IMG/VR virus record: IMGVR_UViG_3300020465_001196
DNA length: 64,000 nt
Origin: a virus
Lineage: Duplodnaviria > Caudoviricetes
Strand: one strand, 5' to 3'
Below are positions 13,331-18,894 of the stretch, piece after piece. The position numbers were made by a program, and so were the translations under genes. The stretch's first letter is position 1, and each line of letters begins with the position of its first letter. The notes below the pieces were generated by a model. That model did no database searches and had not been told where the DNA came from. It was given only the letters and a program-made list of their open reading frames with translations.

Positions 13331-13631
13331 ATTAGGCTCTTGACAATATAGAAACCTATGCTATTATAATATTATATCCGGTCGTAATTAACTAGAGCAG
13401 AGAAAATTTAGAAAGAAAAGATCGTTACTCAAAGGTTGGGCCGAACTCTGACCTTTTTACCATGGCACATGATATAGTCATGACTTGACTACATATTGTT
13501 TGTCGCTGTTGTTCGCCGCGGTAAGTCATTGAAATTATTAGTCTTTTTTCACACAAGATGTTGTGTCGCGTTTATCACGATGATCACTATATCTAGTGGC
13601 CAATTGTTACTGTACAGCAATGCGTACAGAC

Positions 13632-13728
13632 TGTTGTATTTTTGCAACACTCTGTGACTAATGTGTTGTAATTATGCAACACCCGAAATCTGTTGTATTT
13701 TTGCAACAGGTGTTGCAATTGTGCAACT
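13632..13728. repeat. four 18-bp palindromes TGTTG(T/C)A-N4-TGCAAC(A/T)
   Basis: At 13632, 13664, 13691, 13711. Confidence 0.9.
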
Positions 13729-13774
13729 CATCAAAAACCCCAGAATTTCTCAACCTCCCGGCCCCTTCTCTCCT

Positions 13775-13876
13775 CTTTGAACCTATCCCCTCTTTGAGGC
13801 CCTTTGAACCTCTTTGAAGCCTTTGAGTGCTTTGAACCGCTTTGAGTGTCTTTGAGTGCTTTGAACGTCTTTGAAG
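13775..13876 (+). repeat. ten CTTTGA(A/G)N units, mostly 9-10 bp apart
   Basis: CTTTGA starts at 13775, 13792, 13802, 13812, 13821, 13830, 13840, 13850, 13859, 13869. Confidence 0.9.
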
Positions 13877-14246
13877 GTGTAGCTGTTATCACCTAACCAT
13901 CCCCGTCATAACAGCTACTAGTATCTCTGGGCTCCATCATCTTTGTTGTAACACTGACCGCTGAGCATACTGAGTATACCAACTTGATCAAAACAGTTCA
14001 GCACGGTTAGGATGTGTAACTCCTTCGATCCATAATGTTATTTAATATAGCAGTATACGATCATCATGTCAACCATTTAATTAGTCTCGGAGAGACCACT
14101 AGATATAGTCATAATTAAATGAGGCCATTTTCAGAGGCTATAGGGGCCACCACAACATATAGTCATGGTGAAACCTACGCAGGTCTGGCGTAAATGACTA
14201 CATATAGTCTCGGGGTTGACAATATCCTGACTAATCCTGGGATCCC

Positions 14247-14314
14247 TACAGCGGGGTCTGTATATGTTACAGCGGGGTCTACCGGCTTTACAGCGGGGTC
14301 TTCGCTATACAGCG
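14247..14314 (+). repeat. iteron-like TACAGCGGGGTCT x3 at exact 21-bp period plus partial fourth copy
   Basis: At 14247, 14268, 14289; TACAGCG at 14308. Confidence 0.9.
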
Positions 14315-14702
14315 TATATAAGATGATCACATATTCAAGCGAACAAATGATCAGGGGCCACAATCGTATGTGCTACGCCATGCAAAGAGTGAAACGTTTT
14401 GCATAAGAGCACATATGAAGCCGAAGGCCTGTGCGAAGCACAGTTGCAAGGAAGAGGTACGCTCTGTTTGTGAGCCATATGGCCATGGTAGGAAGCGATG
14501 ATCAATGGTGATTATATGGTTAAGAGGCCATGGTTTACAGCATAGGTAATTACTTTTTTGATGGTGAAAAACGGGTAATGAGAGACGCGGTTTCTCTTTT
14601 TGAGTACCCTGTAATCATCATGCTCTGTATACTGTCTTATAGTGTTCATCTTGTACTATTCACTAGTATGTCGTATAGTGTGTCATTGAGTGTAATCGTG
14701 CT

Positions 14703-16568: not shown

Positions 16569-16629
16569 TTATCTATTTGTTTTACGCATAGCAGATATGC
16601 AGATAAATACTAGCTTACCAAAGGATATT

Positions 16630-16860
16630 ATGAAAAAAGATATACACCCTGACTATCATGAAATCACAGTTAAAAGAACTGATGGCTCTACGTTTAAAAC
16701 TAAATCAACTTGGGGCAAAAAGGGTGATACCATGAATCTAGAAACTGATCCAACAGACCATCCAGCATGGAATCCTGGTAAGAAAGCAAGGATGAAAGAA
16801 AAGGGTCGTGTTGCAAGTTTTCAATCTAGATATGGTAATATATTTTCTAAAAAGGATTAG
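16630..16860 (+). CDS. rpmE: 50S ribosomal protein L31 (bL31), zinc-free alphaproteobacterial type
   Basis: [10 protein letters not shown]...[13 protein letters not shown]...DPTDHPAW...[10 protein letters not shown]; no CxxC; RBS AAGGA; start refined to 16630. Confidence 0.93.
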
Positions 16861-17467: not shown

Positions 17468-17707
17468 TTATTTTTTAGCAAAACTTTCTTTTGTTATCCC
17501 AGCTTTAGCGAATGCTTCAGCAAATGCATTATTCAAAGGTGCATTATTAGATTCATTTGATTTAAAACTTTTTTGATTGTGAGAAGGCTTTTTTCTTTTT
17601 TGAGGTTTAGATTTCTTCTTAGGTAAAGGCTCAATTGAGTGAGTGATTTTCTTTACTGACTTTTTTTGAGGTTCACCTATGGTGTATGTTTGTTTCTTTT
17701 TAGCCAT
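17468..17707 (-). CDS. very basic small protein
   Basis: Lys-rich; C-terminal NNAFAEAFAKA helix; TAAATA at 17731 upstream. Confidence 0.7.
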   Translation of the reverse strand: MAKKKQTYTIGEPQKKSVKKITHSIEPLPKKKSKPQKRKKPSHNQKSFKSNESNNAPLNNAFAEAFAKAGITKESFAKK

Positions 17708-17773
17708 ATATGTTTTAGGTTCCTTAACTGTATTTAACCATTATCATTGAAATGAAGCATATAATATGCAAAA

Positions 17774-18239
17774 ACCTTGGGCTTATGTCCTAAGACTGCC
17801 AAGGTACTATATGCAAGAAGGCCGTTTTAAGTACTTTAGTACACCTTCGGTGTAGACCAAATGTCTACGAAATGGAAGTATCTAAGACTTCCTATGGAAG
17901 CTACTGTGGCTTCCTAAAATGAGAAGCTTCAATGCTTCTCTAAATGAGAACAACTAAGGTTCTCTAAAACGGTGCAATTTTTAAAGACATTTTTAAACTT
18001 TATAAGTCGTCTAGCACCTCTATAAACATTATAGGTTATTATTGTTTAGTGTAAGAATTTATAAGCATTTTTAAAGTATTATACTAGCTAACTTACTAAT
18101 AATAAACCTAACTAAATGAGCATCTGTGGCTCTCTTTTCCTAGTAGGTGTAAGTAATTATCTCTTACATACCTCCATTAAAATATTTGATAATGGATATC
18201 GTTACACTTTATCAAATATTTTTTAGAGGTTAAGTTAGC
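17774..18239. ncRNA. candidate structured non-coding RNA / hairpin array
   Basis: Four adjacent covarying hairpins 17874-17964, fifth at 18118-18132, 14-bp perfect stem 18179-18222; no ORF. Confidence 0.45.
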
Positions 18240-18291
18240 GATAATTCACATGACATTTACATTAAATATTATAGCAGAGAGAGGTTGTATC

Positions 18292-18894
18292 GTGGATAAA
18301 ATTATTTTAACAGACATAGACGGTGTTGTTTTTGATTGGCATACAGCATTCGTTAAATGGATGGAACTTCAAGGTTATTCGTCAACAGGTGTGATGCATC
18401 ATGATGCAGAAATACACAACGAGTTTGGAATTGCTTTTCAAGAAGGTCTTATTAAAAGAGAAGAGTTCAATTCTTCTATGGCGTGTTCTATTTTAGAACC
18501 ATTACGCGGCGCCGAGATTTGGATTCCTAAACTTAAAGAAGAAGGTTTTAAATTTATTGCTATTACTTCTTTAAGTGATAAACCAATCGCTCAATACTAT
18601 CGTTATTTAAATTTAGAAGATTACTTTGATGTTGAAACTTTTTTAGATGTTAGATGTTTACCTGCAGGTGCAGATAAAACAGAAGCACTAGAAGAATTCA
18701 AAGATAGTGCTTTACTTTACATTGATGATAGAACATTAAATATTGAAATAGCATTAAAACAAAATCTTAATGCTATACTAATGAAACATCCTTATAACAT
18801 TCAATACTCAAACCCAAAAGTTAAATTAGTTAGCACTTGGGAAGATATTTACAATTACATTCAAAAAGTATACAACGTAAAACCAAATAAATAA
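18292..18894 (+). CDS. HAD-superfamily 5'(3')-nucleotidase-like phosphatase
   Basis: ILTDIDGV motif I, ITS motif II, K and YIDD motifs; GTG start with RBS GAGG. Confidence 0.85.
   Translation: MDKIILTDIDGVVFDWHTAFVKWMELQGYSSTGVMHHDAEIHNEFGIAFQEGLIKREEFNSSMACSILEPLRGAEIWIPKLKEEGFKFIAITSLSDKPIAQYYRYLNLEDYFDVETFLDVRCLPAGADKTEALEEFKDSALLYIDDRTLNIEIALKQNLNAILMKHPYNIQYSNPKVKLVSTWEDIYNYIQKVYNVKPNK

What the first reader, a model, noticed from the sequence alone, without database searches (positions are those of the whole stretch)
17774..18132. Tandem hairpin array with compensatory stem changes and a shared loop motif
Seen: GGAAGT-ATCTAAG-ACTTCC (17874), GGAAGC-TACTGTG-GCTTCC (17896), GAGAAGC-TTCAAT-GCTTCTC (17921), GAGAAC-AACTAAG-GTTCTC (17946) and GAGC-ATCTGTG-GCTC (18118), most preceded by AAAT. 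Further stems lie at 17774-17805 and 17852-17868. Stem sequence varies while pairing is kept, and most loops share CT(A/G)(A/T)G. Known: CsrB/RsmZ-type RNAs titrate proteins with repeated hairpins, but use GGA loops, which are absent here. Inference: an undescribed multi-hairpin sponge RNA or ssDNA signal.
Basis: partly seen in the sequence, partly recalled or inferred. Interest (0 to 1): 0.65.

Follow-up and report, generated by a model that had tools for sequence, protein, structure and literature searches.

The report
New modular RNA of marine jumbophages
The flagged hairpins are part of a conserved, roughly 400-base folded non-coding element, most likely an RNA, found in large ocean viruses of alphaproteobacteria; it matches no catalogued RNA family and probably works by binding many copies of a protein, possibly the virus's own unusual Hfq RNA chaperone.

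Summary
The hairpins are real (z -6.4; densest cluster in the window and in a complete 328-kb relative). They are the accessory part of a larger element, about 17770-18175, in T4-like marine jumbo phages with an alphaproteobacterial host. Homologues in four lineages keep it single-copy, in different gene neighbourhoods, at 84-94% identity against 56-85% at neighbouring synonymous sites, with 10 of 40 pairs changed on both sides. The flagged hairpins vary from 4 copies to none. The conserved core is a GC hairpin with a U-tract, repeated helices carrying a 7-nt A-rich bulge, and a short end motif. The U-tract and G-U/U-U wobble pattern favour the minus strand (about 70%); no clear promoter was found and transcription is untested. 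No Rfam or cultured-phage match. The 328-kb relative encodes Hfq with the A-binding face intact and the U-binding pocket altered, plus two cold-shock proteins. Best reading: a trans-acting multi-site protein-binding RNA that works like CrcZ but is not a member; the partner is inferred, not shown. The scan noted one homologue before, on other DNA (e1-5363274).

The parts
17770..18175 (-). Whole conserved structured element, predicted ncRNA of about 405 nt (strand inferred, about 70% minus)
17770..17805 (-). P1: 7-bp GC-rich hairpin with an inner mini-stem, followed on the minus strand by a U5 tract (U8 in two distant lineages, U3 in one); candidate intrinsic terminator and 3' end
   Evidence: compensatory U-A/C-G and G-C/C-G (L078)
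17817..17848 (-). Module B0: 5-bp helix, 9-nt bulge, 4-bp hairpin
   Evidence: outer stem compensated in L074
17851..17869 (-). Hairpin A1 (stem replaced with pairing kept in L020)
17874..17964 (-).
17971..18018 (-). Module B1: nested helices with two A-rich bulges; strongest covariation (5 of 9 pairs changed on both sides)
18032..18110 (-). Module B2: long helix with two A-rich loops; the domain shared with all distant lineages
18118..18132 (-). Hairpin A6 (absent in L013, L017 and L074; L013 and L017 carry a similar hairpin elsewhere)
18145..18173 (-). End hairpin whose loop holds a GAUAAYUA motif found in all four lineages; G-U pairs on the minus strand in L001, L012, L013 and L074
18180..18246 (.). 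AT-rich imperfect inverted repeat; candidate promoter or operator region, not resolved
17731..17736 (-). TAAATA late-type promoter of the downstream 79-aa gene, so that gene does not depend on the element as a leader
   Evidence: the same motif precedes many genes in the window
18263..18268 (+). TAAATA late-type promoter of the divergent HAD gene (likely start GTG 18292)
17468..17707 (-). Flanking 79-aa basic protein, no Pfam or PHROG family; neighbour only in the closest lineage
18292..18894 (+). Flanking HAD/NT5C-like hydrolase (phrog_420)

Best explanation
A free-standing, trans-acting structured RNA of about 230-410 nt, most likely read from the minus strand and ended by the P1 hairpin plus U-tract. 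It displays several copies of a protein-binding module on a helical scaffold: 1-5 A-rich bulges, plus in this lineage 2-4 tandem hairpins that expand and contract by duplication. It most likely titrates or scaffolds an RNA-binding protein during infection, in the manner of CrcZ. The leading candidate partner is Hfq, either the phage's own or the host's, bound through its A-binding distal face; the phage cold-shock proteins are second. Shown: structure, covariation, conservation, single copy, independence from neighbours, and Hfq/Csp genes in a close relative. Inferred: transcription, strand, protein binding and the identity of the partner (Hfq alone about 0.2-0.25).
For: Covariation: 96.5% of cells paired, 10 of 40 pairs changed on both sides, 0/500 shuffles, slid controls 37-46%. 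Element identity 0.84-0.94 against 0.56-0.85 at 4-fold sites of the next gene. Kept in four lineages with different flanking genes, and the downstream gene is convergent in L026 and G003, so it is not a leader. Modules vary in copy number. Minus strand: a U-tract follows P1 on that strand only. In 28 distinct bulge modules the first closing pair is always pairable on the minus strand (A-U 25, G-C 2, G-U 1) and the next is G-U 16, U-U 10, A-U 2, which would be A-C or A-A on the plus strand (one of the 28 rows, from L034, is probably mis-parsed). The 328-kb relative encodes Hfq (E 2.5e-19), two CSD proteins, IF-1, L11, S21 and an alpha-type tmRNA. In 17 phage-clade Hfqs the distal-face stretch is invariant while the positions matching E. 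coli Q8, F42 and H57 are replaced (residue roles from my own knowledge, face specificity from PMC6561178). An Hfq of this clade and the window's own 79-aa protein both have a longest contig of 323,919 bp, which suggests but does not show the same genome. CrcZ is 407 nt with six A-rich stretches bound by the distal face (PMC4063720).
Against: No expression data. No canonical sigma-70 or late promoter on either strand, although this phage's promoters are otherwise very canonical. Folding energy slightly favours the plus strand in the window (z -4.3 against -3.3), and group 2 has a conserved extended -10 and some G-U pairs on the plus strand. The bulge modules are not stable on their own (z not significant). 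Each bulge offers only about two ARN triplets, and the CrcZ motif AANAANAA is not enriched. Hfq was not found in the two incomplete records G002 and G003 that carry the element. Core stems almost never use G-U (85 Watson-Crick, 1 G-U, 1 A-C, 1 other), which also fits a DNA-level structure. Related sequences can exceed shuffle controls without structure.
Confidence: 0.45

Rival explanations
1. A structured RNA with another job: a base-pairing sRNA aided by the phage Hfq, a self-assembling or ribosome-associated RNA in which the A-rich bulges make tertiary (A-minor) contacts, or a decoy for a nuclease that cuts A-rich RNA.
For: Same evidence for an RNA. The invariant bulge sits on marginally stable helices, which suits tertiary packing. 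The phage has a rich translation toolkit.
Against: No conserved single-stranded seed was seen. Free gain and loss of modules fits independent binding sites better than one rigid fold.
Confidence: 0.25
2. A DNA-level signal (replication origin, packaging or recombination site) that folds when single-stranded, with the T5A3 tracts as unwinding or bending elements.
For: Folds as DNA at z -5.9. Almost no G-U in core stems. No canonical promoter. Single copy. T4 oriE has evenly spaced repeats (PMC3016281).
Against: Terminator-type U-tract of up to 8 U and a G-U/U-U wobble pattern. No skew inflection at the element: the window minimum is near 12-14 kb, where another repeat-rich non-coding region lies. 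No reverse transcriptase in G001.
Confidence: 0.15
3. The functional RNA is the plus strand, started from the TATAAT-like box at 17760, with U-rich bulges.
For: TATAAT or TATTAT in group 1 and a TG-extended -10 in group 2 lie just before P1. Slightly better plus-strand energy. Some one-sided G-U changes on the plus strand.
Against: No such box in G003, where a gene stop lies 3 nt before the A-run. No plus-strand terminator. The bulge-closing positions would be A-C or A-A mismatches.
Confidence: 0.2
4. A cis-regulatory leader or attenuator for the adjacent gene.
For: It ends in a terminator-like hairpin upstream of a co-directional gene in several lineages.
Against: Downstream genes differ in every lineage, carry their own TAAATA promoter after the terminator, and are convergent in L026 and G003.
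Confidence: 0.05

Closest known systems
CrcZ/CrcY of Pseudomonas (Hfq-titrating RNA; PMC4063720)
   Same: About 400 nt, several A-rich stretches, stand-alone gene; proposed binding to the Hfq distal face.
   Different: No Rfam match. AANAANAA is not enriched. The A-rich tracts are short bulges on covarying helices. It is phage-encoded, in a phage clade with its own altered Hfq.
CsrB/RsmZ family
   Same: Tandem short hairpins, variable copy number, terminator.
   Different: No GGA loops, no CsrA in the phage record, no Rfam match.
Cuckoo (alpha-r14/CcsR) sRNAs of Alphaproteobacteria (own knowledge)
   Same: 2-4 tandem hairpin modules, alphaproteobacterial setting.
   Different: Loops lack the C-rich anti-Shine-Dalgarno motif; no Rfam match.
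Large phage RNAs GOLLD/ROOL and marine IMES RNAs (own knowledge)
   Same: Several-hundred-nt structured RNA in phage or marine DNA, function unknown.
   Different: No Rfam match; modular with variable copy number rather than one ornate fold.
T4 oriE iteron cluster (PMC3016281)
   Same: Evenly spaced repeats in a T4-like phage intergenic region.
   Different: Here the repeats are covarying hairpins and bulged helices with a terminator, and they are not at the skew switch.

Membership tests
CsrB/RsmZ | GGA in hairpin loops or single-stranded linkers, many copies | tested here: not met
   Loops are C-N-N-W-G; GGA lies in stems; 0-2 ANGGA per strand
CsrB/RsmZ | Cognate CsrA/RsmA | tested here: inconclusive
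   No CsrA in G001-G003; host genome unknown
CrcZ | Match to an Rfam model | tested here: not met
   No hit at gathering score or at E<=10
CrcZ | Multiple AANAANAA/(ARN)n stretches | tested here: not met
   0-3 overlapping hits per element and not conserved; instead 1-4 exact UAAAAA(U/G) tracts
CrcZ | Binds and titrates Hfq through the distal face | not testable with these tools
   Only circumstantial: phage Hfq with distal face conserved
Cuckoo/alpha-r14 sRNA | C-rich anti-SD hairpin loops | tested here: not met
   Loop list
Y RNA/Ro60 system | Ro60 (TROVE) gene in the genome | tested here: not met
   No TROVE in the complete G001
Retron/DGR/RT-associated ncRNA | Linked reverse transcriptase | tested here: not met
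   No RVT_1 in G001-G003; very divergent RTs could be missed
Any Rfam 15 family (tmRNA, 6S, RNase P, GOLLD, ROOL, IMES, riboswitches) | Covariance-model match | tested here: not met
   the same scans did find tmRNA and glutamine riboswitches elsewhere in these phages
Fremin et al. 2023 candidate viral RNAs (PMC10690425) | Overlap with one of the 8,495 models | not testable with these tools
   Supplement not held; those models are 29-151 nt, so at most a fragment could be listed
Bacterial ncRNA gene (general) | Own promoter | tested here: inconclusive
   No canonical promoter on either strand; weak candidates only
Bacterial ncRNA gene (general) | Intrinsic terminator | tested here: inconclusive
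   GC hairpin plus U3-U8 on the minus strand in all lineages; the simple scan misses it because the loop is long

The most novel reading that the evidence does not exclude
A phage-encoded RNA-protein module: jumbo phages make an Hfq that keeps only the A-binding face, together with a modular RNA whose A-rich bulges load or titrate it (or mixed phage/host hexamers), rewiring host RNA regulation during infection. I found no description of such a pair in the searched literature.
Probability: 0.2. Interest if true: 0.85.

Novelty: new variant of a known kind. Interest (0 to 1): 0.62.

Why it matters
Few regulatory RNAs of lytic phages are known, and none was found in the searched literature for marine jumbo phages of alphaproteobacteria. 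This is an uncatalogued RNA family with a simple repeated motif that can be tested in vitro without culturing the phage. The same clade carries an Hfq with an altered U-binding pocket, which makes a concrete question testable: do phages run their own Hfq-based RNA control?

Tried and rejected
Rfam at gathering score and E<=10: only weak miRNA/snoRNA chance hits. Cultured phage collection: no homologue; Staphylococcus and Helicobacter phage hits are short AT-rich chance matches. A scan of viral contigs with the bulge motif gave 120 hits, all chance apart from the known G003 locus. Searches used a mistyped pattern, so the one bacterial-genome scan is uninformative and presence in host genomes was not tested; the corrected pattern found only the known loci in viral contigs. 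tRNA anticodon mimicry: position 33 is not always U and position 37 is not a purine. REP/BIME: GTAG lies inside the stem and the element is single-copy. CtrA, MotA, Fur and DnaA boxes: spacing or conservation did not fit, by inspection. The pseudoknot proposed in e1-5363274 is possible in L002/L010 but was not evident in the other homologues. Palindrome-correction artefact: cannot explain covariation in helices 40 nt apart or the invariant bulge. RegA, RT, Ro60 and CsrA were not found (the RegA search had no positive control). The Atlas gave no family for the 79-aa protein. The z-scores used only 15 shuffles and are not relied on.

Full report
1. Observation. The five hairpins and two further stems are present as described. 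The stretch 17760-17980 folds far better than shuffles as plus RNA (z -6.4), minus RNA (-5.6) and DNA (-5.9). It is the densest cluster of perfect hairpins in the window.

2. Setting. The window is part of a marine jumbo phage. Some small genes match pelagiphages, and a relative at about 80% nucleotide identity and syntenic across the window is a complete 328-kb record with terminal repeats and a T4-like capsid gene. An alpha-type tmRNA and a Caulobacter-like Hfq point to an alphaproteobacterial host; SAR11 is likely from the low GC and gene hits, but that is inference. The hairpins lie in a gap of about 580 nt between divergent genes, each with its own outward-facing TAAATA late-type promoter.

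3. Homologues. Through the flanking proteins and DNA patterns I recovered the element in four lineages. Group 1: window, L001, L012, L013, L016, L017, L020, L025, L074. Group 2: L002/L010, L011, L026, L029, L032. Then L034 and G003/L078, found with a model of the shared domain (E 0.002 and 7e-7) and confirmed by the P1 hairpin and repeated bulge modules. Two independent assemblies are identical to the window over the gap, so it is not an assembly artefact. Flanking genes differ among lineages, and the downstream gene is convergent in L026 and G003. The element is single-copy in the complete genome. It is 84-94% identical to group 1 homologues where four-fold sites of the neighbouring gene are 56-85% identical.

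4. Anatomy. In plus coordinates: P1 (17774-805); bulged helix B0 (17817-48); hairpin A1 (17851-69); array A2-A5 (17874-964); nested bulged helices B1 (17971-18018) and B2 (18032-110); hairpin A6 (18118-32); end hairpin (18145-73). On 40 named pairs in 10 sequences, 96.5% of cells pair and 10 pairs change on both sides, against 37-46% paired in slid controls. The flagged array has 4 units here, 2-3 in close relatives, and one or none in distant lineages. What all lineages share is P1, one or more modules of the form helix / 2 nt opposite UUUAAAAA(U/G) / helix, and a GAUAAYUA motif at the other end. The motif's background rate is about 0.03 per 400 nt.

5. Strand and molecule. For the minus strand: a U-tract follows P1 on that strand in every lineage (U5, U3, U8, U8) and never on the plus strand. 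In L034 no gene reads into it, so a terminator there implies a transcript started inside the gap. The two positions closing the bulge read A-U/G-C/G-U and G-U/U-U/A-U on the minus strand, a typical RNA wobble series, but mostly A-C and A-A on the plus strand. The end hairpin keeps G-U pairs on the minus strand in four homologues. For the plus strand: -10-like boxes before P1 in groups 1 and 2, a few plus-strand G-U changes, and slightly better energy in the window. Alignment folding was near even (group 1 favoured minus, -49.5 against -43.3; group 2 was -37.2 against -38.6). No canonical promoter exists on either strand. I put the minus strand at about 70%. Near-absence of G-U in core stems keeps a DNA-level role open, but the terminator and the lack of a skew switch argue against it.

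6. Mechanism. A stand-alone element whose modules are gained and lost freely is best read as an array of protein-binding sites (inference). The complete relative encodes Hfq, two cold-shock proteins, IF-1, L11 and S21. Across 17 Hfqs of this clade the distal-face residues are invariant while the proximal U-pocket positions and rim arginines are replaced. Hfq binds U-rich RNA on the proximal face and A-R-N repeats on the distal face (PMC6561178), and the 407-nt CrcZ titrates Hfq through six A-rich stretches on the distal face (PMC4063720). An RNA of similar size with up to five A-rich bulges beside an A-face-only Hfq is a coherent pairing, but it is circumstantial. Each bulge gives only about two triplets, the CrcZ motif is not enriched, the modules are weak folds alone, and Hfq is not seen in two incomplete records that carry the element.

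7. Comparison. It fails membership of CsrB/RsmZ, CrcZ, cuckoo, Y RNA and RT-linked RNAs on the features tested, and matches no Rfam 15 family or cultured phage. Literature searches found no description. A fragment could be among the unnamed candidates of PMC10690425, which I could not check.

8. Verdict. A real, conserved, uncatalogued structured element, probably a minus-strand ncRNA that binds several copies of a protein (0.45; with Hfq as partner about 0.2-0.25). Another RNA function 0.25, DNA signal 0.15, cis leader 0.05; the strand question (plus 0.2) overlaps these. Novelty: new variant of a known kind. Interest 0.62.

Noticed in passing
G001:7144-7350 (L054); L200-L203: Phage-clade Hfq (68 aa, best PDB hit Caulobacter Hfq 6gwk; 25 clusters at 74-100% identity). 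The distal face is invariant; positions matching Q8, F42, H57 and the rim arginines are altered. It could act as an A-only binder or poison host hexamers.
   Followed up: partly
L054:7351-7600; L200:2707-2960: About 250-nt non-coding stretch right after hfq, with its own TAAATA, a partly conserved 3' half and a strong plus-strand fold (about -60 kcal/mol against -40 on the other strand); no Rfam hit in G001. A second candidate ncRNA.
   Followed up: partly
window 16597-16860: Ribosomal protein L31 gene (Pfam E 1e-21), absent at this place in relatives L017-L024. G001 also encodes L11, S21, IF-1, two cold-shock proteins and an Hc1-like protein.
   Followed up: partly
G001:94937-95228 (L058): Permuted alphaproteobacterial tmRNA in the phage; none detected in the window.
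   Followed up: no
L034:7928-8002; L078:2351-2403: Glutamine (glnA) riboswitches in related phages; in L034 it lies directly after this element's terminator and a late promoter.
   Followed up: no
window 13400-14700: Second long non-coding region near the transcription divergence and skew minimum, with palindromic repeats at 13610-13727 and short direct repeats at 13777-13875; a better origin candidate.
   Followed up: no
L078:755-1003: In G003 a cold-shock gene lies about 400 nt upstream of the element, in the same direction as the predicted RNA.
   Followed up: no
window 17468-17707: 79-aa lysine-rich protein with a conserved C-terminal helix motif and no family; possible nucleic-acid binder.
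   Followed up: partly
L011 (around 6140-6100, minus strand): Exact tandem duplication of about 33 nt just outside P1 in this homologue.
   Followed up: no
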